From the human T2T-CHM13v2.0 reference genome, Homo sapiens: DNA of 64,000 nt. Below are positions 1 to 41,781 of the stretch, in pieces; position 1 is the first letter of the stretch; each line of letters opens with the position of its first letter. Made by a program: the position numbers and the translations under genes. The notes beneath the pieces were generated by a model. It worked only from the letters and a program-made list of their open reading frames with translations. It did not search any database and was not told the origin of the DNA. The DNA lies in NCBI GenBank assembly GCA_009914755.4, contig CP086569.2, forward strand, positions 47,808,001-47,872,000, read 5' to 3'.

Positions 1-120
1 TTTTGGATTTTTAGTAGTGACAGCGTTTCACTGTATTGGCCAGGATGGTCTTGATCTCTTCACCTTGTGATCCCCTTGCCTTGGCCTCCAAATTTGCTGG
101 GATTACAGGCCTGAGCCAAG
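1..120 (-). mobile_element. Alu SINE, 5' portion truncated by window edge (unit 1)
   Basis: Reverse-complement Alu body ...ttttagtagtgacagcgtttcactgtattggccaggatggtcttgatctc...gctgggattacaggcctgagccaag. The Alu is primate-specific. Confidence 0.9.
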
Positions 121-685
121 ATCCATATTTTTTAAATGAAAAAAAATTTCAAAGGTACTCTGCTTGGTACAATAATCAAATGTATAAACTGAGGAATAAA
201 ACATAACCATGAAACCTACTTATAACTGCATATGGAAAATACAGAGGATAATTTTTTAAATAACATATTTTGAAAGCCTTAACTAGTAATTTGAAGAGTT
301 GGCATTTGAAAGGCCAGTATGAATATACCTTCAAAGCAGCAACACAGGTTCCCCATGAGAAAAAGCAAACTCAGGGAAAATAAAACCACAAAGGTTCAAT
401 CTCTTCTGACCTTTGAAAGACACAGCACAGACAGTGGTCCTTAGGACGAAGAGCAGGAGACCCCTAATTCCGTCACCATGGCGATAGGGCATAAACATTG
501 CTGGGTGAGGGCACAATCCACATTGTGAGGTCCAACTGCTGCCAGGAAGACAGGAGTGCTTTTACATAGACCGAAAGGTCATTGAAGGCTCAGAGTTTTG
601 TTTCAAGAACTGAATCCCAAGCCCACACGTTATTAGGCTGCGCTTCTTAAAACAAGCTATGAGATGGGAAAAAGGGCACCCACAA

Positions 686-2246
686 ACATACGTATACATT
701 ATGTATACAATAATATACAGTATCATATATATAATATATATAACCTATGTATAATATTGTTTTACATCCTGCATCTTATACTATATATATTGTATAAAAT
801 ATAATAATTGATAATATATAAGTTTTATATTTATATTATATGACATATATTATATATTATAATTTATGATATATATATTATATGTTATATATCATATATA
901 GAATATATTATACGGTTAATATACGTATTAAATATAAATTATATATTATATACATTATATATAATATATCTGTTATATATAATACCCATTATGCATAATA
1001 TATATATTATGTCTATGTTATATATAGTATAAAACAACATATAATAATATATAATTGTATATATAAAAGGTGACATATAATATATATTATATTTTATGAC
1101 ATATGTAATATATATTATATATTATATATAATACGTTGTATGTATAATACCTATATTAAATATATATGATATGACTATGTTATTAATTACATGTCACATG
1201 TGTTATATATTATATATTTTACATACAATATACCGGTTACATACAATATATACTATCTTACCTACAATGTATAATTTATTACATGTAAAATAAAGAATGC
1301 AGTATATTATGTATAATTTATAATATACAATATGTGGAATGTGATATATATAACATATAATATATGATATATGATATACACTATATGATATATAACATAC
1401 AATATATGATACCTAATATATATGGTATACAATATATATTTTATGATATGTATTCTATATGTTTTTTATTCTGTTATATATAACTATTTGAAATTATATA
1501 TAACTGTATAATATTTTATGTAAATATGTAATATAATATATATAACTATATAATATATTATATATAACTTTATATTATGTTATATATACTTTTATAACAT
1601 AATTTACATAAAATATCATAATATAATATGTATTATATTATTTCTTATTACATAATATATATTACATATCACCCAATATAAGTAACATACATAATATTAT
1701 AATATAGATTATATTATGTTATATTAAATATCATATATATCATGTATCATATATTCTATAATATATATTACACATTATATAATATGTATGTTGTCTATTA
1801 TGTGATATATATAACTATATATATAATTATATTATTATACATATAACTAGATAAACGTGTAATTCTACATATTTTCATTTATAATATATAGAATTATGTA
1901 ATCATATATAATTATTTATATTCTATAAAAAATTATATCATTATATAAATTATAATATATAAAAATTAAAATATGTACTTAAAACAGATATATTATATAT
2001 CATATATGATATAGTACCTTTGTTATATATCATAATACATATAAATGTGTATTATGTTATCTATAATTATATAATTTCGTATATAAGATGTATAATATGT
2101 ATTATATATTTTATATGCTATGTAATATATATAGTATATATAAGATGACACAGGATAAATATTATATACTATGACATATAAAATATAAGAGGTTATATGT
2201 TACATATAAGTCATACCACATAAGATGTAATATATATCATATATAA
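686..2246. repeat. AT-rich low-complexity block of unit 1 (~1.56 kb, TA/TATA/TATG-type degenerate)
   Basis: Strongly A+T-dominated sequence made of TA-rich words with many short AT palindromes (e.g. tatatcatatatgatata). It is homologous base-for-base to the blocks in the other units, so it is not a freely slipping pure microsatellite. Confidence 0.85.
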
Positions 2247-2540
<294 letters not shown>

Positions 2541-3105
2541 ATCCATATTTTTTAAATGAAAAAAAATTTCAAAGGTACTCTGCTTGGTACAATAATCAAA
2601 TGTATAAACTGAGGAATAAAACATAACCATGAAACCTACTTATAACTGCATATGGAAAATACAGAGGATAATTTTTTAAATAACATATTTTGAAAGCCTT
2701 AACTAGTAATTTGAAGAGTTGGCATTTGAAAGGCCAGTATGAATATACCTTCAAAGCAGCAACACAGGTTCCCCATGAGAAAAACAAACTCAGGGAAAAT
2801 AAAACCACAAAGGTTCAATCTCTTCTGACCTTTGAAAGACACAGCACAGACAGTGGTCCTTAGGACGAAGAGCAGGAGACCCCTAATTCCGTCACCATGG
2901 CGATAGGGCATAAACATTGCTGGGTGAGGGCACAATCCACATTGTGAGGTCCAACTGCTGCCAGGAAGACAGGAGTGCTTTTACATAGACCGAAAGGTCA
3001 TTGAAGGCTCAGAGTTTTGTTTCAAGAACTGAATCCCAAGCCCACACGTTATTAGGCTGCGCTTCTTAAAACAAGCTATGAGATGGGAAAAAGGGCACCC
3101 ACAAA
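2541..3105. other. Complex, non-repetitive ~565 bp segment of the unit (representative copy)
   Basis: This segment begins right after the Alu: atccatattttttaaatgaaaaaaaatttcaaaggtactctgc ... ccgtcaccatggcgatagggcataaacattgc ... cacacgttattaggctgcgcttcttaaaacaag ... gggcacccacaaacatacg. It has no simple-repeat character and retains several CpGs. The same segment lies in every unit at Alu_end+1 to Alu_end+565. Confidence 0.8.
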
Positions 3106-4665
3106 CATACGTATACATTACGTATATAATAATATACAGTATCATATATATAATATATATAACCTATGTATAATATTGTTTTACATCCTGCATCTTATAC
3201 TATATATATTGTATAAAATATAATAATTGATAATATATAAGTTTTATATTTATACTATATGACATATATTATATATTATAATTTATGATATATATATTAT
3301 ATGTTATATATCATATGTAGAATATATTATACGGTTAATATACGTATTAAATATAAATTATATATTATATACATTATATATAATATATCTGTTATATATA
3401 ATACCCATTATGCATAATATATATATTATGTCTATGTTATATATAGTATAAAACAACATATAATAATATATAATTGTATATATAAAAGGTGACATATAAT
3501 ATATATTATATTTTATGACATATGTAATATATATTATATATTATATATAATACGTTGTATGTATAATACCTATATTAAATATATATGATATGACTATGTT
3601 ATTAATTACATGTCACATGTGTTATATATTATATATTTTACATACAATATACCGGTTACATACAATATATACTATCTTATCTACAATGTATAATTTATTA
3701 CATGTAAAATAAAGAATGCACTATATTATGTATAATTTATAATATACAATATGTGGAATGTGATATATATAACATATAATATATGATATATGATATACAG
3801 TATATGATATATAACATACAATATATGATACCTAATATATATGGTATACAATATATATTTTATGATATGTATTCTATATGTTTTTTATTCTGTTATATAT
3901 AACTATTTGAAATTATATATAACTGTATAATATTTTATGTAAATATGTAATATAATATATATAACTATATAATATATTATATATAACTTTATATTATGTT
4001 ATATATACTTTTATAACATAATTTACATAAAATATCATAATATAATATATATTATATTATTTCTTATTACATAATATATATTACATATCACCCAATATAA
4101 GTAACATACATAATATTATAATATAGATTATATTATGTTATAGTAAATATCATATATATCATGTATCATATATTCTATAATATATATTACACATTATATA
4201 ATATGTATGTTGTTTATTATGTGATATATATAAGTATATATATAATTATATTATTATACATATAACTAGATAAACGTGTAATTCTACATATTTTCATTTA
4301 TAATATATAGAATTATGTAATCATATATAATTATTTATATTCTATAAAAAATTATATCATTATATAAATTATAATATATAAAAATTAAAATATGTACTTA
4401 AAACAGATATATTATATATCATATATGATATAGTACCTTTGTTATATATCATAATACATATAAATGTGTATTATGTTATCTATAATTATATAATTTCGTA
4501 TATAAGATGTATAATATGTATTATATATTTTATATGTTATGTAATATATCTAGTATATATAAGATGACACAGGATAAATATTATACACTATGACATATAA
4601 AATATAAGAGGTTATATGTTACATATAAGTCATACCACATAAGATGTAATATATATCATATATAA
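3106..4665. repeat. AT-rich low-complexity block (unit 2)
   Basis: Homolog of 686-2246. Confidence 0.85.
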
Positions 4666-4959
<294 letters not shown>

Positions 4960-5524
4960 ATCCATATTTTTTAAATGAAAAAAAATTTCAAAGGTACTCT
5001 GCTTGGTACAATAATCAAATGTATAAACTGAGGAATAAAACATAACCATGAAACCTACTTATAACTGCATATGGAAAATACAGAGGATAATTTTTTAAAT
5101 AACATATTTTGAAAGCCTTAACTAGTAATTTGAAGAGTTGGCATTTGAAAGGCCAGTATGAATATACCTTCAAAGCAGCAACACAGGTTCCCCATGAGAA
5201 AAAGCAAACTCAGGGAAAATAAAACCACAAAGGTTCAATCTCTTCTGACCTTTGAAAGACACAGCACAGACAGTGGTCCTTAGGACGAAGAGCAGGAGAC
5301 CCCTAATTCCGTCACCATGGCGATAGGGCATAAACATTGCTGGGTGAGGGCACAATCCACATTGTGAGGTCCAACTGCTGCCAGGAAGACAGGAGTGCTT
5401 TTACATAGACCGAAAGGTCATTGAAGGCTCAGAGTTTTGTTTCAAGAACTGAATCCCAAGCCCACACGTTATTAGGCTGCGCTTCTTAAAACAAGCTATG
5501 AGATGGGAAAAAGGGCACCCACAA

Positions 5525-7083
5525 ACATACGTATACATTATGTATATAATAATATACAGTATCATATACATAATATATATAACCTATGTATAATATTGTT
5601 TTACATCCTGCATCTTATACTATATATATTGTATAAAATATAATAATTGATAATATATAAGTTTTATATTTATACTATATGACATATATTATATATTATA
5701 ATTTATGATATATATATTATATGTTATATATCATATATAGAATATATTATACGGTTAATATACGTATTAAATATAAATTATATATTATATACATTATATA
5801 TAATATATCTGTTATATATAATACACATTATGCATAATATATATATTATGTCTATGTTATATATAGTATAAAACAACATATAATAATATATAATTGTATA
5901 TATAAAAGGTGACATATAATATATATTATATTTTATGACATATGTAATATATATTATATATTATATATAATACGTTGTATGTATAATACCTATATTAAAT
6001 ATATATGATATCACTATGTTATTAATTACATGTCACATGTGTTATATATTATATATTTTACATACAATATACCGGTTACATACAATATATACTATCTTAC
6101 CTACAATGTATAATTTATTACATGTAAAATAAAGAATGCAGTATATTATGTATAATTTATAATATACAATATGTGGAATGCGATATATATAACATATAAT
6201 ATATGATATATGATATACAGTATATGATATATAACATACAATATATGATACCTAATATATATGGTATACAATATATATTTTATGATATGTATTCTATATG
6301 TTTTTTATTCTGTTATATATAACTATTTGAAATTATATATAACTGTATAATATTTTATGTAAATATGTAATATAATATATATAACTATATAATATATTAT
6401 ATATAAATATATATTATGTTATATATACTTTTATAACATAATTTACATAAAATGTCATAATATAATATAGATTATATTATTTCATATTACATAATATATA
6501 TTGCATATCACCCAATATAAGTAACATACATAATATTATAATATAGATTATATTATGTTATATTAAATGTCATATATATCATGTATCATATATTCTATAA
6601 TATATATTATACATTTTATAATATGTATGTTGTCTATTATGTGATATATATAACTATATATAATTATATTATTATACATATAACTAGATAAACATGTAAT
6701 TCTACATATTTTCATTTATAATATATAGAATTATATAATCATATATAATTATTTATATTCTATAAAAAATTATATCATTATATAAATTATAATATATAAA
6801 AATTATAATACGTACTACAAATATATATATTATATATCATATATGATATAGTACCTTTGTTATATATCATAGTACATATAAATGTGTATTATGTTATCTA
6901 TAATTATATAAATTCATATATAAGATGTATAATATGTATTATATATTATATATGTTATGTAATATATATAGTATATATAAGATGACACAGGATAAATATT
7001 ATATACTATGACATATAAAATATATGAGGTTATATGTTACATATAAGGCATAGCACATAACATGTAATATATATCATCTATAA
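5525..7083. repeat. AT-rich low-complexity block (unit 3)
   Basis: Homolog of 686-2246. Confidence 0.85.
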
Positions 7084-7377
7084 TTTTTTTTTAGACAGAG
7101 TCTTGTCCTGTTGCACAGGATGGAGTACAATGGCGCCATCTTTGCTCACAGCAACATCTGCCTCACGGGTCTAAGCGATTGTCCTCCCTCAACCTCCCAG
7201 GTAGCTGGGACTACACCACACTGGGACTACACCAGCTGCCACCAGGCCTAGCTAATTTTTTGGATTTTTAGTAGTGACAGCGTTTCACTGTATTGGCCAG
7301 GATGGTCTTGATCTCTTCACCTTGTGATCCCCTTGCCTTGGCCTCCAAATTTGCTGGGATTACAGGCCTGAGCCAAG
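7084..7377 (-). mobile_element. Alu SINE (unit 4)
   Basis: Reverse-complement Alu running from a poly-T to ...gcctgagccaag. It is of the ttggatttt subtype. Confidence 0.9.
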
Positions 7378-7942
7378 ATCCATATTTTTTAAATGAAAAA
7401 AAATTTCAAAGGTACTCTGCTTGGTACAATAATCAAATGTATAAACTGAGGAATAAAACATAACCATGAAAGCTACTTATAACTGCATATGGAAAATACA
7501 GAGGATAGTTTTTTAAATAACATATTTTGAAAGCCTTAACTAGCAATTTGAATAGTTGGCATTTGAAAGGACAGTATGAATATACATTCAAAGCAGCAAC
7601 ACAGGTTCCCCATGAGAAAAAGCAAACTCAGGGAAAATAAAACCACAAAGGTTCAATCTCTTCTGATCTTTGAAAGACACAGCACAGACAGTGGTCCTTA
7701 GGAGGAAGAGCGGGAGACCCCTAATTCCGTCACCATGGCGATAGGGCATAAACATTGCTAGGTGAGGGCACAATCCACATTGTGAGGTCCAACTGCTGCC
7801 AGGAAGACAGGAGTGCTTTTACATAGACCGAAAGGTCATTGAAGGCTCAGAGTTTTGTTTCAAGAACTGAATCCCAAGCCCACACGTTATTAGGCTGCGC
7901 TTCTTAAAACAAGTTATGAGATGGGAAAAAGGGCACCCACAA

Positions 7943-9792
<1,850 letters not shown>

Positions 9793-10357
9793 ATCCATAT
9801 TTTTTAAATGAAAAAAAATTTCAAAGGTACTCTGCTTGGTACAATAATCAAATGTACAAACTGAGGAATAAAACATAACCATGAAAGCTACTTATAACTG
9901 CATATGGAAAATACAGAGGATAATTTTTTAAGTAACATATTTTGAAAGCCTTAACTAGTAATTTGAAGAGTTGGCATTTGAAAGGACAGTATGAATATAC
10001 CTCCAAAGCAGCAACACAGGTTCCCCATGAGAAAAAGCAAACTCAGGGAAAATAAAACCACAAAGGTTCAATCTCTTCTGACCTTTGAAAGACACAGCAC
10101 AGACAGTGGTCCTTAGGACGAAGAGCAGGAGACCCCTAATTCCGTCACCATGGCGATAGGGCATAAACATTGCTGGGTGAGGGCACAATCCACATTGTGA
10201 GGTCCAACTGCTGCCAGGAAGACAGGAGTGCTTTTACATAGACCGAAAGGTCATTCAAGGCTCAGAGTTTTGTTTCAAGAACTGAATCCCAAGCCCACAC
10301 GTTATTAGGCTGCGCTTCTTAAAACAAGTTATGAGATGGGAAAAAGGGCACCCACAA

Positions 10358-12205
<1,848 letters not shown>

Positions 12206-12770
12206 ATCCATATTTTTTAAATGAAAAAAAAATTCAAAGGTACTCTGCTTGGTACAATAATCAAATGTATAAACTGAGGAATAAAACATAACCATGAAAG
12301 CTACTTATAACTGCATATGGAAAATACAGAGGATAATTTTTTAATAACATATTTTGAAAGCCTTAACTAGTAATTTGAAGAGTTGGCATTTGAAAGGCCA
12401 GTATGAATATACCTTCAAAGCAGCAACACAGGTTCCCCATGAGAAAAAGCAAACTCAGGGAAAATAAAACCGCAAAGGTTCAATCTCTTCTGACGTATGA
12501 AAGACACAGCACAGACAGTGGTCCTTAGGAGGAAGAGCAGGAGACCCCTAATTCCGTCACCATGGCGATAGGGCATAAACATTGCTGGGTGAGGGCACAA
12601 TCCACATTGTGAGGTCCAACTGCTGCCAGGAAGACAGGAGTGCTTTTACATAGACCGAAAGGTCATTGAAGGCTCAGAGTTTTGTTTCAAGAACTGAATC
12701 CCAAGCCCACACGTTATTAGGCTGCGCTTCTTAAAACAAGTTATGAGATTGGAAAAAGGGCACCCACAAA

Positions 12771-14624
<1,854 letters not shown>

Positions 14625-15189
14625 ATCCATATTTTTTAAATGAAAAAAAATTTCAAAGGTACTCTGCTTGGTACAATAATCAAATGTATAAACTGAGGAA
14701 TAAAACATAACCATGAAACCTACTTATAACTGCATATGGAAAATACAGAGGATAATTTTTTAAATAACATATTTTGAAAGCCTTAACTAGTAATTTGAAG
14801 AGTTGGCATTTGAAAGGCCAGAATGAATATACCTTCAAAGCAGCAACATAGGTTCCCCATGAGAAAAAGCAAACTCAGGGAAAATAAAACCACAAAGGTT
14901 CAATCTCTTCTGACCTTTGAAAGACACAGCACAGACAGTGGTCCTTAGGACGAAGAGCAGGAGACCCCTAATTCCGTCACCATGGCGATAGGGCATAAAC
15001 ACTGCTGGGTGAGGGCACAATCCACATTGTGAGGTCCAACTGCTGCCAGGAAGACAGGAGTGCTTTTACATAGACCGAAAGTTCATTGAAGGCTCAGAGT
15101 TTTGTTTCAAGAACTGAATCCCAAGCCCACACGTTATTAGGCTGCGCTTCTTAAAACAAGTTATGAGATGGGAAAAAGGGCACCCACAA

Positions 15190-17042
<1,853 letters not shown>

Positions 17043-17607
17043 ATCCATATTTTTTAAATGAAAAAAAATTTGAAAGGTACTCTGCTTGGTAGAATAATCA
17101 AATGTATAAACTGAGGAATAAAACATAACCATGAAAGCTACTTATAACTGCATATGGAAAATACAGAGGATAATTTTTTAAATAACATATTTTGAAAGCC
17201 TTAACTAGTAATTTGAAGAGTTGGCATTTGAAAGGACAGTATGAATATACCTTCAAAGCAGCAACACAGGTTCCCCATGAGAAAAAGCAAACTCAGGGAA
17301 AATAAAACCACAAAGGTTCAATCTCTTCTGACCTTTGAAAGACACAGCACAGACAGTGGTCCTTAGGACGAAGAGCAGGAGACCCCTAATTCCGTCACCA
17401 TGGCGATAGGGCATAAACATTGCTGGGGGAGGGCACAATCCACATTGTGAGGTCCAACTGCTGCCAGGAAGACAGGAGTGCTTTTACATAGACCGAAAGG
17501 TCATTGAAGGCTCAGAGTTTTGTTTCAAGAACTGAATCCCAAGCCCACACGTTATTAGGCTGCGCTTCTTAAAACAAGTTATGAGATGGGAAAAAGGGCA
17601 CCTACAA

Positions 17608-19458
<1,851 letters not shown>

Positions 19459-20023
19459 ATCCATATTTTTTAAATGAAAAAAAATTTCAAAGGTACTCTG
19501 CTTGGTACAATAATCAAATGTATAAACTGAGGAATAAAACATAACCATGAAACCTACTTATAACTGCATATGGAAAATACAGAGGATAATTTTTTAAATA
19601 ACATATTTTGAAAGCCTTAACTAGTAATTTGAAGAGTTGGCATTTGAAAGGCCAGTATGAATATACCTTCAAAGCAGCAACACAGGTACCCCATGAGAAA
19701 AAGCAAACTCAGGGAAAATAAAACCACAAAGGTTGAATCTCTTCTGACCTTTGAAAGACACAGCACAGACAGTGGTCCTTAGGACGAAGAGCAGGAGACC
19801 CCTAATTCCGTCACCATGGCGATAGGGCATAAACATTGCTGGGTGAGGGCACAATCCACATTGTGAGGTCCAACTGCTGCCAGGAAGACAGGAGTGCTTT
19901 TACATAGACCAAAAGGTCATTGAAGGCTCAGAGTTTTGTTTCAAGAACTGAATCCCAAGCCCACACGTTATTAGGCTGCGCTTCTTAAACAAGTTATGAG
20001 ATGGGAAAAAGGGCACCTACAAA

Positions 20024-21579
20024 CATAAGTATACATTATGTATATAATAATATACAGTATCATATATATAATATATATAACCCATGTATAATATTGTTTT
20101 ACATCCTGCATCTTATATTATATATATTGTATAAAATATAATAATTGATAATATATAAATTTTATATTTATACAATATGACATATAGTATATATTATAAT
20201 TTATTACATATATAATATATGTTATATATCATATATAGAATATATTATACGGTTAATATACGTATTAAATATAAATTATACATTATATATATTATATAAA
20301 ATATATCTGCTATATATAATACCCATTGTGCATAATATATATATTATGTCTATGTTATATATAGTATAAAACAACATATAATAATATATAATTGTATATA
20401 TAAAACGCGACATATAATATATATTATATTTTATGACATATGTAATATATATTATATATTATATATAATACGTTGTTTGTATAATACCTATAATAAATAT
20501 AAATTATATGACTATGTTATTAATTTCATGTCACATATGTTATATATTATATATTTTACATAGAATATACCGGTTACATACAATATATACTATGTTACCT
20601 ATAATGTATAATTTATTACATGTAAAATAAAGAATGCAATATATTATGTATAATTTATAATATACAATATGTGGAATGTGATATATATAACATATAATAT
20701 ATTATATATGATATACAGTATATGATATATAACATACAATATATGATACCTAATATATATGGTATACAATATATATTTTATGATATGTATTCTATATGTT
20801 TTATATTCTGTTATATATAACTATTTGAAATTATATATAACTGTATAATATTTTATGTAAATATGTAATATAATATATAACTATATAATATATTATATAT
20901 AACTATATATTATGTTATATATACTTTTATAACATAATTTACATAAAATATCATAATATAATATATATTATATTATTTCATATTACATAATATATATTAC
21001 ATATCACCCAATATAAGTAACATACATAATATTATAATATAGATTATATTATGTTATATTAAATATCATATATATCATGTATCATATATTCTATAATATA
21101 TATGATACATTATATAACATGTATGTTGTCTATTATGTGATATATATAACTATATATAATTATATTATTATACATATTACTAGATAAACATGTAATTCTA
21201 CATATTTTCATTTATAATATATAGAATTATATAATCATATATAATTATTTATATTCTATAAAAAATTATATCATTATATAAATTATAATATATAAAAATT
21301 ATAATATGTACTACAAATATATATATTATATATCATATATGATATAGTACCTTTGTTATATATCATAATACATATAAATGTGTATTATGTTATTTATAAT
21401 TATATAATTTCATATATAAGATGTATAATATGTATTATATATTATATATGTTATGTAATATATATAGTATATATAAGATGACACAGGATAAATATTATAT
21501 ACTATGACATATAAAATATATGAGGTTATATGTTACATATAAGGCATAGCACATAACATGTAATATATATCATATATAA
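20024..21579. repeat. AT-rich low-complexity block (unit 9)
   Basis: Homolog of 686-2246. Confidence 0.85.
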
Positions 21580-21872
<293 letters not shown>

Positions 21873-22437
21873 ATCCATATTTTTTAAATGAAAAAAAATT
21901 TCAAAGGTACTCTGCTTGGTACAATAATCAAATGTATAAACTGAGGAATAAAACATAACCATGAAACCTACTTATAACTGCATATGGAAAATACAGAGGA
22001 TAATTTTTTAAATAACATATTTTGAAAGCGTTAACTAGTAATTTGCAGAGTTGGCATTTGAAAGGCCAGTATGAATATACCTTCAAAGCAGCAACACAGG
22101 TTCCCCATGAGAAAAAGCAAACTCAGGGAAAATAAAACCACAAAGGTTCAATCTCTTCTGACCTTTGAAAGACACAGCACAGACAGTGGTCCTTAGGACG
22201 AAGAGCAGGAGACCCCTAATTCCGTCACCATGGCGATAGGGCATAAACATTGCTGGGTGAGGGCACAATCCACATTGTGAGGTCCAACTGCTGCCAGGAA
22301 GACAGGAGTGCTTTTACATAGACCGAAAGGTCATTGAAGGCTCAGAGTTTTGTTTCAAGAACTGAATCCCAAGCCCACACATTATTAGGCTGCGCTTCTT
22401 AAAACAAGTTATGAGATGGGAAAAAGGGCACCTACAA

Positions 22438-24292
<1,855 letters not shown>

Positions 24293-24857
24293 ATCCATAT
24301 TTTTTAAATGAAAAAAAATTTCAAAGGTACTCTGCTTGGTACAATAATCAAATGTATAAACTGAGGAATAAAACATAACCATGAAACCTACTTATAACTG
24401 CATATGGAAAATACAGAGGATAATTTTTTAAATAACATATTTTGAAAGCCTTAACTAGTAATTTGAAGAGTTGGCATTTGAAAGGCCAGTATGAATATAC
24501 CTTCAAAGCAGCAACACAGGTTCCCCATGAGAAAAAGCAAACTCAGGGAAAATAAAACCACAAAGGTTCAATCTCTTCTGACCTTTGAAAGACACAGCAC
24601 AGACAGTGGTCCTTAGGACGAAGAGCAGGAGACCCCTAATTCCGTCACCATGGCGATAGGGCATAAACATTGCTGGGTGAGGGCACAATCCACATTGTGA
24701 GGTCCAACTGCTGCCAGGAAGACAGGAGTGCTTTTACATAGACCGAAAGGTCATTGAAGGCTCAGAGTTTTGTTTCAAGAACTGAATCCCAAGCCCACAC
24801 GTTATTAGGCTGCGCTTCTTAAAACAAGTTATGAGATGGGAAAAAGGGCACCCAAAA

Positions 24858-26712
<1,855 letters not shown>

Positions 26713-27277
26713 ATCCATATTTTTTAAATGAAAAAAAATTTCAAAGGTACTCTGCTTGGTACAATAATCAAATGTATAAACTGAGGAATAAAACATAACC
26801 ATGAAACCTACTTATAACTGCATATGGAAAATACAGAGGATAATTTTTTAAATAACATATTTTGAAAGCCTTAACTAGTAATTTGAAGAGTTGGCATTTG
26901 AAAGGCCAGTATGAATATACCTTCAAAGCAGCAACACAGGTTCCCCATGAGAAAAAGCAAACTCAGGGAAAATAAAACCACAAAGGTTCAATCTCTTCTG
27001 ACCTTTGAAAGACACAGCACAGACAGTGGTCCTTAGGACGAAGAGCAGGAGACCCCTAATTCCGTCACCATGGCGATAGGGCATAAACATTGCTGGGTGA
27101 GGGCACAATCCACATTGTGAGGTCCAACTGCTGCCAGGAAGACAGGAGTGCTTTTACATAGACCGAAAGGTCATTGAAGGCTCAGAGTTTTGTTTCAAGA
27201 ACTGAATCCCAAGCCCACACGTTATTAGGCTGCGCTTCTTAAAACAAGCTATGAGATGGGAAAAAGGGCACCCACAA

Positions 27278-28838
27278 ACATACGTATACATTATGTATAC
27301 AATAATATACAGTATCATATATATAATATATATAACCTATGTATAATATTGTTTTACATCCTGCATCTTATACTATATATATTGTATAAAATATAATAAT
27401 TGATAATATATAAGTTTTATATTTATATTATATGACATATATTATATATTATAATTTATGATATATATATTATATGTTATATATCATATATAGAATATAT
27501 TATACGGTTAATATACGTATTAAATATAAATTATATATTATATACATTATATATAATATATCTGTTATATATAATACCCATTATGCATAATATATATATT
27601 ATGTCTATGTTATATATAGTATAAAACAACATATAATAATATATAATTGTATATATAAAAGGTGACATATAATATATATTATATTTTATGACATATGTAA
27701 TATATATTATATATTATATATAATACGTTGTATGTATAATACCTATATTAAATATATATGATATGACTATGTTATTAATTACATGTCACATGTGTTATAT
27801 ATTATATATTTTACATACAATATACCGGTTACATACAATATATACTATCTTACCTACAATGTATAATTTATTACATGTAAAATAAAGAATGCAGTATATT
27901 ATGTATAATTTATAATATACAATATGTGGAATGTGATATATATAACATATAATATATGATATATGATATACACTATATGATATATAACATACAATATATG
28001 ATACCTAATATATATGGTATACAATATATATTTTATGATATGTATTCTATATGTTTTTTATTCTGTTATATATAACTATTTGAAATTATATATAACTGTA
28101 TAATATTTTATGTAAATATGTAATATAATATATATAACTATATAATATATTATATATAACTTTATATTATGTTATATATACTTTTATAACATAATTTACA
28201 TAAAATATCATAATATAATATATATTATATTATTTCTTATTACATAATATATATTACATATCACCCAATATAAGTAACATACATAATATTATAATATAGA
28301 TTATATTATGTTATATTAAATATCATATATATCATGTATCATATATTCTATAATATATATTACACATTATATAATATGTATGTTGTCTATTATGTGATAT
28401 ATATAACTATATATATAATTATATTATTATACATATAACTAGATAAACGTGTAATTCTACATATTTTCATTTATAATATATAGAATTATGTAATCATATA
28501 TAATTATTTATATTCTATAAAAAATTATATCATTATATAAATTATAATATATAAAAATTAAAATATGTACTTAAAACAGATATATTATATATCATATATG
28601 ATATAGTACCTTTGTTATATATCATAATACATATAAATGTGTATTATGTTATCTATAATTATATAATTTCGTATATAAGATGTATAATATGTATTATATA
28701 TTTTATATGCTATGTAATATATATAGTATATATAAGATGACACAGGATAAATATTATATACTATGACATATAAAATATAAGAGGTTATATGTTACATATA
28801 AGTCATACCACATAAGATGTAATATATATCATATATAA
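27278..28838. repeat. AT-rich low-complexity block (unit 12)
   Basis: Homolog of 686-2246. Confidence 0.85.
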
Positions 28839-29132
<294 letters not shown>

Positions 29133-29697
29133 ATCCATATTTTTTAAATGAAAAAAAATTTCAAAGGTACTCTGCTTGGTACAATAATCAAATGTGTAAA
29201 CTGAGGAATAAAACATAACCATGAAACCTACTTATAACTGCATATGGAAAATACAGAGGATAATTTTTTAAATAACATATTTTGAAAGCCTTAACTAGTA
29301 ATTTGAAGAGTTGGCATTTGAAAGGCCAGTATGAATATACCTTCAAAGCAGCAACACAGGTTCCCCATGAGAAAAACAAACTCAGGGAAAATAAAACCAC
29401 AAAGGTTCAATCTCTTCTGACCTTTGAAAGACACAGCACAGACAGTGGTCCTTAGGACGAAGAGCAGGAGACCCCTAATTCCGTCACCATGGCGATAGGG
29501 CATAAACATTGCTGGGTGAGGGCACAATCCACATTGTGAGGTCCAACTGCTGCCAGGAAGACAGGAGTGCTTTTACATAGACCGAAAGGTCATTGAAGGC
29601 TCAGAGTTTTGTTTCAAGAACTGAATCCCAAGCCCACACGTTATTAGGCTGCGCTTCTTAAAACAAGCTATGAGATGGGAAAAAGGGCACCCACAAA

Positions 29698-31257
29698 CAT
29701 ACGTATACATTACGTATATAATAATATACAGTATCATATATATAATATATATAACCTATGTATAATATTGTTTTACATCCTGCATCTTATACTATATATA
29801 TTGTATAAAATATAATAATTGATAATATATAAGTTTTATATTTATACTATATGACATATATTATATATTATAATTTATGATATATATATTATATGTTATA
29901 TATCATATGTAGAATATATTATACGGTTAATATACGTATTAAATATAAATTATATATTATATACATTATATATAATATATCTGTTATATATAATACCCAT
30001 TATGCATAATATATATATTATGTCTATGTTATATATAGTATAAAACAACATATAATAATATATAATTGTATATATAAAAGGTGACATATAATATATATTA
30101 TATTTTATGACATATGTAATATATATTATATATTATATATAATACGTTGTATGTATAATACCTATATTAAATATATATGATATGACTATGTTATTAATTA
30201 CATGTCACATGTGTTATATATTATATATTTTACATACAATATACCGGTTACATACAATATATACTATCTTATCTACAATGTATAATTTATTACATGTAAA
30301 ATAAAGAATGCACTATATTATGTATAATTTATAATATACAATATGTGGAATGTGATATATATAACATATAATATATGATATATGATATACAGTATATGAT
30401 ATATAACATACAATATATGATACCTAATATATATGGTATACAATATATATTTTATGATATGTATTCTATATGTTTTTTATTCTGTTATATATAACTATTT
30501 GAAATTATATATAACTGTATAATATTTTATGTAAATATGTAATATAATATATATAACTATATAATATATTATATATAACTTTATATTATGTTATATATAC
30601 TTTTATAACATAATTTACATAAAATATCATAATATAATATATATTATATTATTTCTTATTACATAATATATATTACATATCACCCAATATAAGTAACATA
30701 CATAATATTATAATATAGATTATATTATGTTATAGTAAATATCATATATATCATGTATCATATATTCTATAATATATATTACACATTATATAATATGTAT
30801 GTTGTTTATTATGTGATATATATAAGTATATATATAATTATATTATTATACATATAACTAGATAAACGTGTAATTCTACATATTTTCATTTATAATATAT
30901 AGAATTATGTAATCATATATAATTATTTATATTCTATAAAAAATTATATCATTATATAAATTATAATATATAAAAATTAAAATATGTACTTAAAACAGAT
31001 ATATTATATATCATATATGATATAGTACCTTTGTTATATATCATAATACATATAAATGTGTATTATGTTATCTATAATTATATAATTTCGTATATAAGAT
31101 GTATAATATGTATTATATATTTTATATGTTATGTAATATATCTAGTATATATAAGATGACACAGGATAAATATTATACACTATGACATATAAAATATAAG
31201 AGGTTATATGTTACATATAAGTCATACCACATAAGATGTAATATATATCATATATAA
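29698..31257. repeat. AT-rich low-complexity block (unit 13)
   Basis: Homolog of 686-2246. Confidence 0.85.
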
Positions 31258-31551
<294 letters not shown>

Positions 31552-32116
31552 ATCCATATTTTTTAAATGAAAAAAAATTTCAAAGGTACTCTGCTTGGTA
31601 CAATAATCAAATGTATAAACTGAGGAATAAAACATAACCATGAAACCTACTTATAACTGCATATGGAAAATACAGAGGATAATTTTTTAAATAACATATT
31701 TTGAAAGCCTTAACTAGTAATTTGAAGAGTTGGCATTTGAAAGGCCAGTATGAATATACCTTCAAAGCAGCAACACAGGTTCCCCATGAGAAAAAGCAAA
31801 CTCAGGGAAAATAAAACCACAAAGGTTCAATCTCTTCTGACCTTTGAAAGACACAGCACAGACAGTGGTCCTTAGGACGAAGAGCAGGAGACCCCTAATT
31901 CCGTCACCATGGCGATAGGGCATAAACATTGCTGGGTGAGGGCACAATCCACATTGTGAGGTCCAACTGCTGCCAGGAAGACAGGAGTGCTTTTACATAG
32001 ACCGAAAGGTCATTGAAGGCTCAGAGTTTTGTTTCAAGAACTGAATCCCAAGCCCACACGTTATTAGGCTGCGCTTCTTAAAACAAGCTATGAGATGGGA
32101 AAAAGGGCACCCACAA

Positions 32117-33675
32117 ACATACGTATACATTATGTATATAATAATATACAGTATCATATACATAATATATATAACCTATGTATAATATTGTTTTACATCC
32201 TGCATCTTATACTATATATATTGTATAAAATATAATAATTGATAATATATAAGTTTTATATTTATACTATATGACATATATTATATATTATAATTTATGA
32301 TATATATATTATATGTTATATATCATATATAGAATATATTATACGGTTAATATACGTATTAAATATAAATTATATATTATATACATTATATATAATATAT
32401 CTGTTATATATAATACACATTATGCATAATATATATATTATGTCTATGTTATATATAGTATAAAACAACATATAATAATATATAATTGTATATATAAAAG
32501 GTGACATATAATATATATTATATTTTATGACATATGTAATATATATTATATATTATATATAATACGTTGTATGTATAATACCTATATTAAATATATATGA
32601 TATCACTATGTTATTAATTACATGTCACATGTGTTATATATTATATATTTTACATACAATATACCGGTTACATACAATATATACTATCTTACCTACAATG
32701 TATAATTTATTACATGTAAAATAAAGAATGCAGTATATTATGTATAATTTATAATATACAATATGTGGAATGCGATATATATAACATATAATATATGATA
32801 TATGATATACAGTATATGATATATAACATACAATATATGATACCTAATATATATGGTATACAATATATATTTTATGATATGTATTCTATATGTTTTATAT
32901 TCTGTTATATATAACTATTTGAAATTATATATAACTGTATAATATTTTATGTAAATATGTAATATAATATATATAACTATATAATATATTATATATAAAT
33001 ATATATTATGTTATATATACTTTTATAACATAATTTACATAAAATGTCATAATATAATATAGATTATATTATTTCATATTACATAATATATATTGCATAT
33101 CACCCAATATAAGTAACATACATAATATTATAATATAGATTATATTATGTTATATTAAATGTCATATATATCATGTATCATATATTCTATAATATATATT
33201 ATACATTTTATAATATGTATGTTGTCTATTATGTGATATATATAACTATATATAATTATATTATTATACATATAACTAGATAAACATGTAATTCTACATA
33301 TTTTCATTTATAATATATAGAATTATATAATCATATATAATTATTTATATTCTATAAAAAATTATATCATTATATAAATTATAATATATAAAAATTATAA
33401 TACGTACTACAAATATATATATTATATATCATATATGATATAGTACCTTTGTTATATATCATAGTACATATAAATGTGTATTATGTTATCTATAATTATA
33501 TAAATTCATATATAAGATGTATAATATTTATTATATATTATATATGTTATGTAATATATATAGTATATATAAGATGACACAGGATAAATATTATATACTA
33601 TGACATATAAAATATATGAGGTTATATGTTACATATAAGGCATAGCACATAACATGTAATATATATCATCTATAA
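32117..33675. repeat. AT-rich low-complexity block (unit 14)
   Basis: Homolog of 686-2246. Confidence 0.85.
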
Positions 33676-33969
33676 TTTTTTTTTAGACAGAGTCTTGTCC
33701 TGTTGCACAGGATGGAGTACAATGGCGCCATCTTTGCTCACAGCAACATCTGCCTCACGGGTCTAAGCGATTGTCCTCCCTCAACCTCCCAGGTAGCTGG
33801 GACTACACCACACTGGGACTACACCAGCTGCCACCAGGCCTAGCTAATTTTTTGGATTTTTAGTAGTGACAGCGTTTCACTGTATTGGCCAGGATGGTCT
33901 TGATCTCTTCACCTTGTGATCCCCTTGCCTTGGCCTCCAAATTTGCTGGGATTACAGGCCTGAGCCAAG
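33676..33969 (-). mobile_element. Alu SINE (unit 15)
   Basis: Reverse-complement Alu at the unit period. Confidence 0.9.
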
Positions 33970-34534
33970 ATCCATATTTTTTAAATGAAAAAAAATTTCA
34001 AAGGTACTCTGCTTGGTACAATAATCAAATGTATAAACTGAGGAATAAAACATAACCATGAAAGCTACTTATAACTGCATATGGAAAATACAGAGGATAG
34101 TTTTTTAAATAACATATTTTGAAAGCCTTAACTAGCAATTTGAATAGTTGGCATTTGAAAGGACAGTATGAATATACATTCAAAGCAGCAACACAGGTTC
34201 CCCATGAGAAAAAGCAAACTCAGGGAAAATAAAACCACAAAGGTTCAATCTCTTCTGATCTTTGAAAGACACAGCACAGACAGTGGTCCTTAGGAGGAAG
34301 AGCGGGAGACCCCTAATTCCGTCACCATGGCGATAGGGCATAAACATTGCTAGGTGAGGGCACAATCCACATTGTGAGGTCCAACTGCTGCCAGGAAGAC
34401 AGGAGTGCTTTTACATAGACCGAAAGGTCATTGAAGGCTCAGAGTTTTGTTTCAAGAACTGAATCCCAAGCCCACACGTTATTAGGCTGCGCTTCTTAAA
34501 ACAAGTTATGAGATGGGAAAAAGGGCACCCACAA

Positions 34535-36384
<1,850 letters not shown>

Positions 36385-36949
36385 ATCCATATTTTTTAAA
36401 TGAAAAAAAATTTCAAAGGTACTCTGCTTGGTACAATAATCAAATGTACAAACTGAGGAATAAAACATAACCATGAAAGCTACTTATAACTGCATATGGA
36501 AAATACAGAGGATAATTTTTTAAGTAACATATTTTGAAAGCCTTAACTAGTAATTTGAAGAGTTGGCATTTGAAAGGACAGTATGAATATACCTCCAAAG
36601 CAGCAACACAGGTTCCCCATGAGAAAAAGCAAACTCAGGGAAAATAAAACCACAAAGGTTCAATCTCTTCTGACCTTTGAAAGACACAGCACAGACAGTG
36701 GTCCTTAGGACGAAGAGCAGGAGACCCCTAATTCCGTCACCATGGCGATAGGGCATAAACATTGCTGGGTGAGGGCACAATCCACATTGTGAGGTCCAAC
36801 TGCTGCCAGGAAGACAGGAGTGCTTTTACATAGACCGAAAGGTCATTCAAGGCTCAGAGTTTTGTTTCAAGAACTGAATCCCAAGCCCACACGTTATTAG
36901 GCTGCGCTTCTTAAAACAAGTTATGAGATGGGAAAAAGGGCACCCACAA

Positions 36950-38797
<1,848 letters not shown>

Positions 38798-39362
38798 ATC
38801 CATATTTTTTAAATGAAAAAAAATTTCAAAGGTACTCTGCTTGGTACAATAATCAAATGTATAAACTGAGGAATAAAACATAACCATGAAAGCTACTTAT
38901 AACTGCATATGGAAAATACAGAGGATAATTTTTTAATAACATATTTTGAAAGCCTTAACTAGTAATTTGAAGAGTTGGCATTTGAAAGGCCAGTATGAAT
39001 ATACCTTCAAAGCAGCAACACAGGTTCCCCATGAGAAAAAGCAAACTCAGGGAAAATAAAACCGCAAAGGTTCAATCTCTTCTGACGTATGAAAGACACA
39101 GCACAGACAGTGGTCCTTAGGAGGAAGAGCAGGAGACCCCTAATTCCGTCACCATGGCGATAGGGCATAAACATTGCTGGGTGAGGGCACAATCCACATT
39201 GTGAGGTCCAACTGCTGCCAGGAAGACAGGAGTGCTTTTACATAGACCGAAAGGTCATTGAAGGCTCAGAGTTTTGTTTCAAGAACTGAATCCCAAGCCC
39301 ACACGTTATTAGGCTGCGCTTCTTAAAACAAGTTATGAGATTGGAAAAAGGGCACCCACAAA

Positions 39363-41216
<1,854 letters not shown>

Positions 41217-41781
41217 ATCCATATTTTTTAAATGAAAAAAAATTTCAAAGGTACTCTGCTTGGTACAATAATCAAATGTATAAACTGAGGAATAAAACAT
41301 AACCATGAAACCTACTTATAACTGCATATGGAAAATACAGAGGATAATTTTTTAAATAACATATTTTGAAAGCCTTAACTAGTAATTTGAAGAGTTGGCA
41401 TTTGAAAGGCCAGAATGAATATACCTTCAAAGCAGCAACATAGGTTCCCCATGAGAAAAAGCAAACTCAGGGAAAATAAAACCACAAAGGTTCAATCTCT
41501 TCTGACCTTTGAAAGACACAGCACAGACAGTGGTCCTTAGGACGAAGAGCAGGAGACCCCTAATTCCGTCACCATGGCGATAGGGCATAAACACTGCTGG
41601 GTGAGGGCACAATCCACATTGTGAGGTCCAACTGCTGCCAGGAAGACAGGAGCGCTTTTACATAGACCGAAAGTTCATTGAAGGCTCAGAGTTTTGTTTC
41701 AAGAACTGAATCCCAAGCCCACACGTTATTAGGCTGCGCTTCTTAAAACAAGTTATGAGATGGGAAAAAGGGCACCCACAA

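What the first reader, a model, noticed from the sequence alone, without database searches (positions are those of the whole stretch)
686..2246. Twenty-seven copies of a 1.5 kb, strongly AT-rich, palindrome-rich block that is a candidate for secondary-structure-prone or fragile DNA
Roughly two-thirds of every unit is TA-dominated low-complexity sequence full of short perfect AT palindromes (e.g. tatatcatatatgatata). In total about 40 kb of such DNA lies in this window alone. Long AT-rich palindromic or minisatellite tracts are established substrates for hairpin and cruciform formation, replication stalling and rearrangement. Known examples are the AT-rich rare fragile sites FRA16B and FRA10B and the palindromic AT-rich repeats at 11q23 and 22q11. 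The blocks here are nevertheless conserved base-for-base between units. That argues they are homogenized as part of the unit rather than mutating by slippage. An array like this could behave as a fragile or late-replicating region and a hotspot for the unequal exchanges documented above.
Basis: partly seen in the sequence, partly recalled or inferred. Interest (0 to 1): 0.55.

Follow-up and report, generated by a model that had tools for sequence, protein, structure and literature searches.

The report
Known human satellite DYZ2 (HSat1B)
The window is a stretch of the well-described human satellite DYZ2/HSat1B, the 2.4 kb repeat best known from the Y long-arm heterochromatin, and its AT-rich block is flexible and full of short palindromes but folds no more stably than its composition or its neighbouring sequence would predict.

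Summary
A 1,554-1,562 bp block with about 86% A+T recurs every 2,412-2,421 bp. There are 26 complete copies plus one cut by the window end, about 41 kb in all. It is not conserved base for base: blocks are 97.0% identical on average.

The array is the known satellite DYZ2/HSat1B. The consensus unit is 2,420 bp and has three parts: the AT-rich block, a 292 bp antisense Alu fragment 18% diverged from AluY, and a 566 bp GC-richer part. GC content (24.5%), CpG density and the ACATACG junction all match published figures.

Short inverted repeats are much denser than in ordinary DNA or in AT-matched shuffles. The excess disappears once dinucleotide content is preserved. Predicted single-strand folding energy equals that of the non-AT flank, is about two-thirds that of a FRA16B repeat array and less than a third that of pure (AT)n. 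There is no long near-perfect palindrome.

The whole block meets the "flexibility island" criterion used for fragile sites. Each unit also keeps one roughly 106 nt quasi-palindrome (-19.8 kcal/mol, z = -4.2).

Published work already reports inverted-repeat enrichment in HSat1B and whole-unit DYZ2 gains and losses about once per Y transmission. Verdict: already known, low interest.

The parts
1..64000 (.). Tandem array of about 26.5 units of the 2,420 bp DYZ2/HSat1B satellite. It fills the whole window and is cut at both ends.
   Evidence: Three anchors recur 26-27 times at 2,412-2,421 bp spacing. The consensus unit is 2,420 bp. GC is 24.5% and CpG density is 1 per 144 bp. Published figures are 24% and 1 per 150 bp.
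686..2246. AT-rich block of the first complete unit, which is the finding. The 25 other complete copies have the start coordinates listed, and a truncated copy lies at 63538-64000.
   Evidence: 1,561 bp, 85.9% A+T, 56.5% AT/TA dinucleotides. Autocorrelation peaks only at lags 5, 7, 9, 14 and 16. TRF sub-repeats show 58-67% matches.
686..692 (+). ACATACG heptamer at the junction between the GC-richer part and the AT-rich block.
   Evidence: Read directly. The same seven bases are named at this junction in the published DYZ2 consensus description.
2247..2538 (-). 5'-truncated Alu fragment. Its A-tail abuts the AT block.
   Evidence: The published DYZ2 Alu is 290 bp and about 20% diverged. Sub-threshold mir-1268 hits (an Alu-derived family) fall here.
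2539..3104 (.). GC-richer part of the unit, the 'HSATI' portion of published descriptions. Another copy is at 120-685.
   Evidence: It is 566 bp, the same as the published mean of 566 bp. Together with the Alu fragment (2247-3104) it is 57% A+T. It is the least variable part, pi = 0.015.
1511..1616 (.). Quasi-palindrome: an imperfect hairpin with an 11-13 nt loop and about three internal loops. There is one per unit.
   Evidence: Window 1505-1622 folds at -19.8 kcal/mol (DNA parameters), z = -4.23, with 0 of 200 dinucleotide shuffles as stable. It gives the best inverted local alignment in the block (score 42 against 29.6 +/- 4.4). It is kept in all 26 units at -18.4 to -20.8 kcal/mol.
1996..2013 (.).
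   Evidence: Exact in all 26 units. It is among the longest perfect palindromes in unit 1 (arm 9). Across all units the longest perfect palindromes are 18-24 bp.
1..17310 (+). First copy of a recent multi-unit duplication. The second copy is at 26593-43902, an offset of 26,592 bp or 11 units.
   Evidence: Only 7 mismatches and no indels over 17.3 kb.
17237..22437 (+). Continuation of the same duplication at a different offset (31,426 bp). The second copy is at 48663-53863.
   Evidence: 5 mismatches over 5.2 kb. The register switch lies within 17237-17310, inside the GC-richer part of the unit.
43903..48736 (+). Two extra units (4,834 bp) present in the second copy of the duplication and absent from the first. 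The boundaries are ambiguous by 74 bp.
   Evidence: This is the difference between the two offsets, 31,426 - 26,592 = 4,834 bp. It is the same size class as the published de novo DYZ2 structural variants of 2,416-4,839 bp.

Best explanation
The window is a piece of the human composite satellite DYZ2, also called HSat1B. Its 2,420 bp unit has three parts: an AT-rich cryptically simple block, an old 5'-truncated Alu fragment, and a GC-richer 'HSATI' part. It most probably comes from the Yq12 heterochromatin, possibly one of the more diverged peripheral arrays. An acrocentric short arm is the less likely alternative.

The AT-rich block is carried along inside the unit. The array grows, shrinks and homogenises by in-register unequal sister-chromatid exchange and gene conversion that use the homology of the whole 2.4 kb unit. 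This explains why the blocks stay nearly the same length and 96-100% alike, with only 2-5 bp slippage at TA microrepeats.

The many short palindromes are a by-product of TA/AT alternation. The hairpins they could form are short, A-T only and weak. The block is therefore easily melted, 'flexible' DNA with one moderate quasi-palindrome per unit. It is not a PATRR-like or FRA16B-like structure-forming element.

Shown here: the anatomy, the composition, the statistics against shuffles, the folding energies, and the recent multi-unit duplication with a two-unit difference. Inferred: the chromosomal location, and that homology rather than DNA secondary structure drives the instability.
For: Identity:
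- Period 2,412-2,421 bp and consensus 2,420 bp. The published median is 2,420 bp.
- Three-part anatomy with 85.6-86.4% A+T, a 292 bp Alu at 82% identity, and a 566 bp remainder. Published values are more than 85% AT, 290 bp at about 20% divergence, and 566 bp.
- ACATACG at the junction.
- GC 24.5% and CpG 1 per 144 bp, against 24% and 1 per 150 bp.
- The two inverted-repeat motifs reported as hugely over-represented on T2T chrY occur once or twice in nearly every unit.
- The window consensus is 98-99.7% identical to short contaminant contigs in 17 unrelated 'bacterial' assemblies. The T2T-Y paper describes exactly this contamination for HSat1B.
- In silico HaeIII fragments are mostly 2.09-2.15 kb, matching the classical 2.1 kb male HaeIII band (my own knowledge).

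Mechanism:
- A duplication of at least 22 kb is 99.9% identical, and its two copies differ by exactly two units.
- The literature reports about one whole-unit DYZ2 structural variant per Y transmission, 29% of Yq12 de novo SNVs attributable to gene conversion, and sister-chromatid exchanges in 15% of Strand-seq libraries.

Structure:
- No inverted-repeat excess over dinucleotide-preserving nulls.
- Fold z-scores of -1.1 and -2.0 for the two halves of the block, against -0.5 for the flank.
- 100 nt windows average -8.5 against -8.7 kcal/mol for the flank, with (AT)50 at -32.
- 300 nt windows fold at -24 to -42, against -48 to -50 for FRA16B repeats and -107 for (AT)150.
Against: - No reference DYZ2 sequence or human genome was available, so identity rests on published descriptors and on unlabelled contaminant contigs.
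- Only 7 of 26 units are 2,420 bp, whereas 93.7% of Y units are reported to be. Units differ by 2-3%. This is not typical central Yq12.
- The block does meet the flexibility-island criterion and contains a significantly stable quasi-palindrome.
- Yq12 inversion breakpoints and most DYZ2 length variation are reported at or in the AT-rich part. A contribution of DNA structure to instability is therefore not excluded.
- Thermodynamic prediction on naked single strands says little about behaviour in methylated heterochromatin.
Confidence: 0.9

Rival explanations
1. The AT block is itself a structure-prone, fragile element. It stalls forks or extrudes hairpins or cruciforms, and by doing so it drives the unequal exchanges and rearrangements of the array, in the way FRA16B/FRA10B or the PATRRs do.
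For: - Inverted-repeat density is 14 per kb (arms of at least 10 nt) against 0 per kb in the flank.
- There is an excess over AT-matched mononucleotide shuffles, z = 9-13.
- The whole block exceeds the 13.7 degree flexibility threshold and has 56.5% AT/TA dinucleotides. A 3.4 kb AT-dinucleotide-rich sequence with 66% AT/TA is sufficient to create a fragile site.
- The conserved 106 nt quasi-palindrome at -19.8 kcal/mol, z = -4.2, is similar to my (AT)34 control at -21.7.
- Published work reports inverted- and mirror-repeat enrichment of HSat1B.
- Yq12 inversion breakpoints abut the AT-rich part, and unit length variation sits mainly there.
- The tripartite repeat is reported to be related to the AT-rich repeats of the 22q11 low-copy repeats (Babcock 2007, as cited).
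Against: - There is no excess over dinucleotide, Markov-2, Markov-3 or Markov-4 nulls, and short perfect palindromes are depleted.
- Folding energy is the same as the non-AT flank and about 65% of FRA16B repeats.
- Only 1 of about 10 overlapping 300 nt segments per block falls below -40 kcal/mol, whereas the published criterion needs at least 7 in a row.
- The longest alternating TA run is 10 nt. The longest inverted repeats are at most 96 nt, 70-78% complementary and hundreds of bases apart.
- PATRR instability needs a long, centrally symmetric palindrome.
- Block length varies by only 8 bp among the 26 copies.
- The resolvable exchange junction is outside the AT block.
- De novo variants are whole units, as homology-driven exchange predicts.
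- A 269,000-character review of fragile sites never mentions the Y chromosome or Yq12.
- The PDAL-seq study highlights HSat3/HSat2, not HSat1, for in vivo ssDNA.
Confidence: 0.2
2. The array is an HSat1B array on an acrocentric short arm (chromosomes 13, 14, 15, 21 or 22) or another minor site, not Yq12.
For: - Only 27% of units are 2,420 bp, against 93.7% on the Y.
- Units are 98.0-99.1% identical to the local consensus and 95.8-99% to each other. That is more diverged than the bulk of Yq12.
- HSat1B is known on the acrocentric short arms.
Against: - The Y holds about 14 Mb of DYZ2, while the other sites hold 'smaller amounts'.
- Peripheral Yq12 arrays are reported to be more diverged.
- The window consensus is exactly 2,420 bp and 99.0-99.7% identical to the collapsed contaminant contigs, which should reflect the most abundant variant.
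- A distinct 88-92% subfamily exists in metagenome contigs and is not the window's type.
Confidence: 0.3
3. The near-identical 17 kb and 5 kb segments are an assembly artefact (mis-joined or duplicated reads in a satellite), not a real duplication.
For: Satellite arrays are hard to assemble. The copies differ by only 12 substitutions in about 22 kb.
Against: - The copies are not identical. They are separated by diverged units and differ by a clean two-unit indel.
- The same pattern of iterative duplications with later small unit gains and losses is described for validated T2T-Y HSat1B arrays.
Confidence: 0.05

Closest known systems
DYZ2 / HSat1B satellite (human Yq12 heterochromatin and acrocentric short arms)
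   Same: Unit length (2,420 bp consensus). Tripartite make-up: more than 85% AT block, a roughly 290 bp 5'-truncated Alu about 20% diverged, and a 566 bp HSATI part. The ACATACG junction. 24% GC and CpG 1 per 150 bp. The Y-enriched inverted-repeat motifs. Multi-unit duplications and whole-unit indels.
   Different: Nothing structural. This stretch is more heterogeneous than the bulk of Yq12: unit lengths are 2,412-2,421 bp rather than 93.7% at 2,420 bp, and inter-unit divergence is 2-3%.
Palindromic AT-rich repeats (PATRR11, PATRR17, PATRR22) and the AT-rich repeats of the 22q11 low-copy repeats
   Same: AT-rich. Reported to share ancestry or association with the same 2.4 kb tripartite repeat (Babcock 2007, known to me only through citing papers). 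Contains inverted repeats.
   Different: PATRRs are nearly perfect, centrally symmetric palindromes of 190-600 bp. Here the longest perfect palindrome is 18-24 bp. The best quasi-palindrome is 106 nt with an 11-13 nt loop and internal mismatches.
FRA16B / FRA10B rare fragile sites (expanded AT-rich minisatellites)
   Same: Very AT-rich. High AT/TA dinucleotide content. High predicted twist flexibility. Kilobase scale, repeated over tens of kilobases.
   Different: FRA16B is a homogeneous 33 bp minisatellite expanded to as many as 2,000 copies. Here the internal repeats are only 58-67% matched, with 5-16 bp periodicity. AT/TA is 56.5% against 73-79%. Folding energy is about two-thirds of FRA16B's. 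Each block is interrupted every 2.4 kb by 859 bp of ordinary sequence.
AT-dinucleotide-rich sequences / flexibility islands of common fragile sites (FRA16C, FRA16D Flex1)
   Same: Continuous run of more than 1.5 kb above the 13.7 degree flexibility threshold. AT/TA content approaches that of the FRA16C element (66%).
   Different: No long perfect (AT)n run (maximum 10 nt). The Mfold-type stability criterion is not reached. Each block is shorter than the 3 kb or more 'long' class.

Membership tests
DYZ2 / HSat1B | Tandem unit of about 2.4 kb (median and consensus 2,420 bp) | tested here: met
   Periods are 2,412-2,421 bp. The majority-rule consensus of 26 units is 2,420 bp.
DYZ2 / HSat1B | Tripartite unit: a block of more than 85% AT, a 5'-truncated Alu of about 290 bp about 20% diverged from AluY, and an HSATI part of about 566 bp | tested here: met
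   85.6-86.4% A+T. The Alu is 292 bp, covers AluY positions 13-288 and is 82% identical (consensus from memory). The remainder is 566 bp.
DYZ2 / HSat1B | ACATACG at the HSATI / AT-rich junction | tested here: met
   Window 686-692. Described.
DYZ2 / HSat1B | About 24% GC and about 1 CpG per 150 bp | tested here: met
   24.5% GC and 1 CpG per 144 bp.
DYZ2 / HSat1B | High identity to a reference DYZ2 consensus or to T2T HSat1B annotation | not testable with these tools
   No human reference or consensus sequence was available. Indirect support comes from 98-99.7% identity to HSat1B-type contaminant contigs and the presence of chrY-enriched inverted-repeat motifs.
DYZ2 / HSat1B | Location in Yq12, alternating with DYZ1 blocks | not testable with these tools
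   The window holds only DYZ2 units. No DYZ1 boundary is present, and no mapping was possible.
PATRR (palindromic AT-rich repeat) | Nearly perfect palindrome of about 190-600 bp with central symmetry | tested here: not met
   The longest perfect palindromes are 18-24 bp. The longest inverted repeats are at most 96 nt, 70-78% complementary and 25-1,030 nt apart. The best quasi-palindrome is 106 nt with an 11-13 nt loop.
PATRR (palindromic AT-rich repeat) | Recurrent translocation breakpoints at the palindrome centre | not testable with these tools
   No breakpoint data for this locus.
FRA16B/FRA10B-type expanded AT-rich minisatellite | Homogeneous short (about 33-42 bp) AT-rich repeat expanded in tandem | tested here: not met
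   TRF sub-repeats show 58-67% matches, and the best is a 22 bp unit x 13 copies at 67%. Autocorrelation peaks only at 5-16 bp.
FRA16B/FRA10B-type expanded AT-rich minisatellite | Highly stable predicted single-strand structures | tested here: not met
   -24 to -42 kcal/mol per 300 nt, against -48 to -50 for a FRA16B consensus array under the same parameters.
FRA16B/FRA10B-type expanded AT-rich minisatellite | Cytogenetic gap or break induced by distamycin A, berenil or BrdU | not testable with these tools
   This needs an experiment. A large fragile-site review does not list the Y chromosome.
AT-dinucleotide-rich sequence / flexibility island (common fragile sites) | 100 bp windows above 13.7 degrees twist flexibility over more than 200-250 bp | tested here: met
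   About 100% of windows in the block exceed the threshold (mean 14.87 degrees), and none do in the rest of the unit. The dinucleotide table was recalled from memory.
AT-dinucleotide-rich sequence / flexibility island (common fragile sites) | At least 7 consecutive 300 nt segments with folding energy below -40 kcal/mol | tested here: inconclusive
   Only the segment at 1351 reaches -41.7 in the first block, and none does in the second. I used ViennaRNA DNA parameters, not Mfold as in the published criterion. Relative to the FRA16B and (AT)n controls the block is clearly weaker.

The most novel reading that the evidence does not exclude
The conserved 106 nt quasi-palindrome in each unit (window 1511-1616 and its 25 equivalents), or the flexible AT block as a whole, acts as a recurrent fork-stalling or cleavage site. 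In that reading it seeds the whole-unit DYZ2 gains, losses and gene conversions seen about once per Y transmission. Secondary structure, and not only 2.4 kb homology, would then set the exceptional mutability of Yq12.
Probability: 0.08. Interest if true: 0.45.

Novelty: already known. Interest (0 to 1): 0.12.

Why it matters
It matters little as a discovery. [quoted passage not shown]

The modest added value is a calibration. The 'non-B motif' enrichment of HSat1B is a composition effect, and the predicted hairpins are no more stable than those of the neighbouring non-AT sequence. Claims that this satellite is structure-prone need experimental support, not motif counts.

If the AT block or its quasi-palindrome did turn out to localise breakpoints, that would give a mechanism for the more than 30-fold mutability of Yq12.

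Tried and rejected
- An Rfam scan of 1-5000 at E <= 1 gave only two sub-threshold mir-1268 hits in the Alu part and no 7SL/SRP hit. This was uninformative beyond 'Alu-like'.
- An ORF scan found nothing above 78 aa in the first two units. I rejected a coding explanation.
- I looked for the contaminant accessions in the T2T-Y supplementary tables and found none in the files held (one search failed because the journal version is not held).
- I looked for the DYZ2 consensus sequence in the Hallast supplement. The sequence is not there, only descriptors.
- Babcock et al. 2007 (PMC1832092) is not held. I know its content only through citing papers and memory.
- I rejected PATRR and FRA16B membership after testing, as set out in the membership table.
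- I considered a higher-order repeat of 11 units. I rejected it because only one pair of segments is near-identical, and the rest of the identity matrix shows no 11-unit periodicity.
- I considered non-human primate origin. I rejected it as unlikely because the consensus is 99.0-99.7% identical to contaminant contigs found in bacterial assemblies.
Full report
**1. What is in the sequence**

Three conserved anchors recur 26-27 times at spacings of 2,412-2,421 bp across the whole window. The 64 kb is therefore one tandem array of about 26.5 units.

Each unit contains an AT-rich block. There are 26 complete blocks of 1,554-1,562 bp with 85.6-86.4% A+T, plus a truncated copy at 63538-64000. Together they make up 40,987 bp, 64% of the window.

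The other 858-859 bp of each unit is 57% A+T. It consists of two parts:
- An Alu fragment on the minus strand at 2247-2538.
- A 566 bp GC-richer part at 2539-3104.

No ORF longer than 78 aa is present. Rfam gives only sub-threshold hits to the Alu-derived mir-1268 family.

**2. Is it conserved base for base?**

No. Pairwise identity of the AT blocks averages 97.0% (range 95.8-100%). The rest of the unit averages 98.0%.
- Variable columns are 14.8% in the AT block against 10.8% elsewhere (Fisher p = 0.006).
- Nucleotide diversity is 0.027 in the AT block, 0.027 in the Alu and 0.015 in the GC-richer part.
- All five multi-base indel sites are in the AT block. They are 2-5 bp long and sit at ATATA/AT/TA microrepeats. 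The four indels elsewhere are single bases in homopolymer runs.

Slippage therefore happens but is tiny, and block length varies by only 8 bp.

The block is cryptically simple and is not a minisatellite. Autocorrelation stands out only at lags 5, 7, 9, 14 and 16. TRF sub-repeats show 58-67% matches.

**3. What it is**

The array matches the published description of the human satellite DYZ2, also called HSat1B, feature by feature.
- The median and consensus unit length is 2,420 bp, the Alu is 290 bp and the HSATI part is 566 bp.
- An ACATACG heptamer sits at the HSATI/AT junction. It is at window 686-692.
- Published composition is 24% GC and one CpG per 150 bp. The window has 24.5% GC and one CpG per 144 bp.
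- The majority-rule consensus of the 26 units is exactly 2,420 bp.
- Two short inverted-repeat motifs are reported as strongly over-represented on the T2T Y chromosome: atataatatatattatat and atgtaattctacatatt. They occur 40 and 28 times in the window (the second count allows one mismatch), about one to two per unit.
- In silico HaeIII digestion gives mostly 2.09-2.15 kb fragments. This agrees with the classical 2.1 kb male-specific HaeIII band, which I cite from my own knowledge.

A conserved 24-mer from the GC-richer part hits 17 short contigs in 'bacterial' genome assemblies from unrelated phyla, and 37 stretches in metagenomes. The bacterial-assembly contigs are 98-99.7% identical to the window consensus. 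The T2T-Y paper describes exactly this human contamination for HSat1B.

I could not align the window to a human reference or to the consensus sequence itself. The chromosomal location is therefore inferred. The Y carries about 14 Mb of DYZ2 and the other sites carry much less. However, only 7 of 26 units here are 2,420 bp, against 93.7% on the Y. Units are 98.0-99.1% identical to the local consensus. This fits a peripheral, more diverged Yq12 array, or an acrocentric array. I put roughly 0.7 on the Y.

**4. How the array changes**

Window 1-17310 is repeated at 26593-43902 with 7 mismatches and no indels. The similarity then continues at a different offset: 17237-22437 matches 48663-53863 with 5 mismatches.

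One duplication of at least 22 kb therefore has copies that differ by exactly two units (4,834 bp). The register switch maps to a 74 bp interval, 17237-17310, in the GC-richer part of the unit and not in the AT block. The right end of the duplication falls near the start of an AT block (about 22438-22638).

This is the signature of in-register unequal exchange. It matches published data:
- Iterative duplications occur in Yq12, and sister-chromatid exchanges are seen in 15% of Strand-seq libraries.
- Five de novo structural variants of 2,416-4,839 bp each affect whole DYZ2 units, about one per Y transmission.
- The Yq12 SNV rate is at least 30 times that of euchromatin, and 29% of the changes look like gene conversion.

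**5. Is the AT block palindrome-rich and structure-prone?**

*Absolute counts.* The AT blocks have 14 inverted repeats per kb with arms of at least 10 nt and spacers of 0-20 nt. The rest of the unit has none.

*Against mononucleotide (AT-matched) shuffles.* The excess is large: 81 against 13 for arms of at least 8 nt, z = 13.

*Against dinucleotide-preserving shuffles and Markov-2 to Markov-4 models.* There is no excess: 81 against 75-94. Perfect palindromes with arms of at least 5 nt are depleted, 24 against 48, z = -2.5. The palindromes are a by-product of TA/AT alternation.

*Longest elements.*
- The longest perfect palindromes are 18-24 bp.
- The longest alternating TA run is 10 nt, and the longest pure A/T run is 35 nt.
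- The longest imperfect inverted repeats have arms of at most 96 nt, are 70-78% complementary and lie 25-1,030 nt apart.

*Folding as single-stranded DNA (kcal/mol).*

| Sequence | Length | Energy | z against dinucleotide shuffles |
|---|---|---|---|
| AT block, first half (686-1465) | 780 nt | -95.6 | -1.1 |
| AT block, second half (1466-2246) | 781 nt | -94.5 | -2.0 |
| Non-AT part (2247-3104) | 858 nt | -98.0 | -0.5 |
| AT block, 100 nt windows | 100 nt | mean -8.5 (min -12.5) | |
| Rest of unit, 100 nt windows | 100 nt | mean -8.7 (min -14.7) | |
| (AT)50 control | 100 nt | -32.0 | |
| (AT)34 with flanks, control | 98 nt | -21.7 | |
| AT block, 300 nt windows | 300 nt | -24 to -42 | |
| FRA16B 33-mer array (unit) | 300 nt | -48 to -50 | |
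| (AT)150 control | 300 nt | -107 | |

The published fragility criterion of at least seven consecutive 300 nt segments below -40 kcal/mol is not approached. That criterion was defined with Mfold, and I used ViennaRNA DNA parameters.

**6.

- About 100% of 100 bp windows in the block exceed the 13.7 degree twist-flexibility threshold that defines AT-dinucleotide-rich 'flexibility islands'. None in the rest of the unit do. AT/TA dinucleotides are 56.5%, against 66% in the FRA16C element that can create a fragile site by itself. I recalled the dinucleotide table from memory.
- The best inverted local alignment in the block is at 1507-1620, with a score of 42 against 29.6 +/- 4.4 in shuffles. The segment 1505-1622 folds into an imperfect hairpin at -19.8 kcal/mol, z = -4.23, with 0 of 200 shuffles as stable. 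All 26 units keep it at -18.4 to -20.8 kcal/mol. It has an 11-13 nt loop and internal loops. By the PATRR experiments, this lack of central symmetry should make it a poor cruciform former.
- The literature reports that three of the four described Yq12 inversion breakpoints abut the AT-rich part, and that DYZ2 length variation arises mainly there.
- The tripartite repeat is reported to be related to the AT-rich repeats of the 22q11 low-copy repeats (Babcock 2007, seen only through).

**7.

- A dedicated paper on chrY inverted repeats singles out the AT-rich DYZ2 motifs.
- In vivo ssDNA footprinting highlights HSat3 and HSat2 in its text, not HSat1.
- A T2T replication-timing study found a chr13p HSat1 array replicating in mid S phase, earlier than HSat2/3. 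The Y was not covered.
- A very long review of fragile sites does not mention the Y chromosome.

**8. Verdict**

- The object is the known satellite DYZ2/HSat1B.
- The fragile or structure-prone interpretation is partly supported. The block is flexible, inverted-repeat-dense DNA with one moderate quasi-palindrome per unit.
- It fails the tests for PATRR-like and FRA16B-like elements. Its predicted hairpins are no stronger than its composition or its neighbours predict.
- The documented instability of the array goes in whole-unit steps, as homology-driven unequal exchange predicts.
- Novelty: already known. Interest: low.

Noticed in passing
window 1-22437 and 26593-53863: A recent duplication of at least 22 kb (9 or more units) with about 99.9% identity. 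The two copies differ by a clean two-unit (4,834 bp) insertion or deletion. The register switch maps to 17237-17310 in the GC-richer part of the unit.
   Followed up: yes
L001-L017 (genome contigs); L006 5929-6920: The satellite appears as 0.6-2.5 kb contigs, 98-99.7% identical to the window consensus, in 17 species-representative 'bacterial' assemblies (Mycobacterium, Bifidobacterium, Streptomyces and others). In Nostocoides japonicum T1-X7 a piece of about 1 kb with 38-42% GC is scaffolded between N-gaps inside a 5.16 Mb scaffold of 65-78% GC. This is human contamination.
   Followed up: partly
L034, L036, L041, L043, L048 and others (metagenome contigs): A second HSat1B subfamily is only about 88-92% identical to the window consensus. 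Its alignments begin at consensus position 8, so it lacks the ACATACG heptamer. It may be an acrocentric or older variant, and its origin was not determined.
   Followed up: no
L018, L023 and other stretches of contigs BNJT01002008.1 and BNJU01004413.1: Two metagenome contigs of about 54 kb contain multi-unit stretches of this satellite. Identity runs from 81 to 98% with many gaps, which looks like error-rich long reads of human DNA assembled in a metagenome.
   Followed up: no
window 2247-2538 and equivalents: The Alu fragment is as variable between units (pi = 0.0265) as the AT block (0.0273) and much more variable than the adjacent GC-richer part (0.0150). CpG decay is a possible cause but was not tested.
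   Followed up: no
window-wide HaeIII (GGCC) sites: Most units give a 2.14-2.15 kb HaeIII fragment plus small ones. Several units have gained or lost a site, giving fragments of 2,094, 2,187, 2,293-2,298 and 2,346 bp. The classical '2.1 kb band' would therefore be heterogeneous in this array.
   Followed up: partly
window 2351-2417 and 4770-4836, minus strand: Sub-threshold Rfam matches to mir-1268 (23-31 bits against a gathering score of 83) lie inside the Alu fragment. The family is Alu-derived, so these are not evidence of a miRNA gene.
   Followed up: partly
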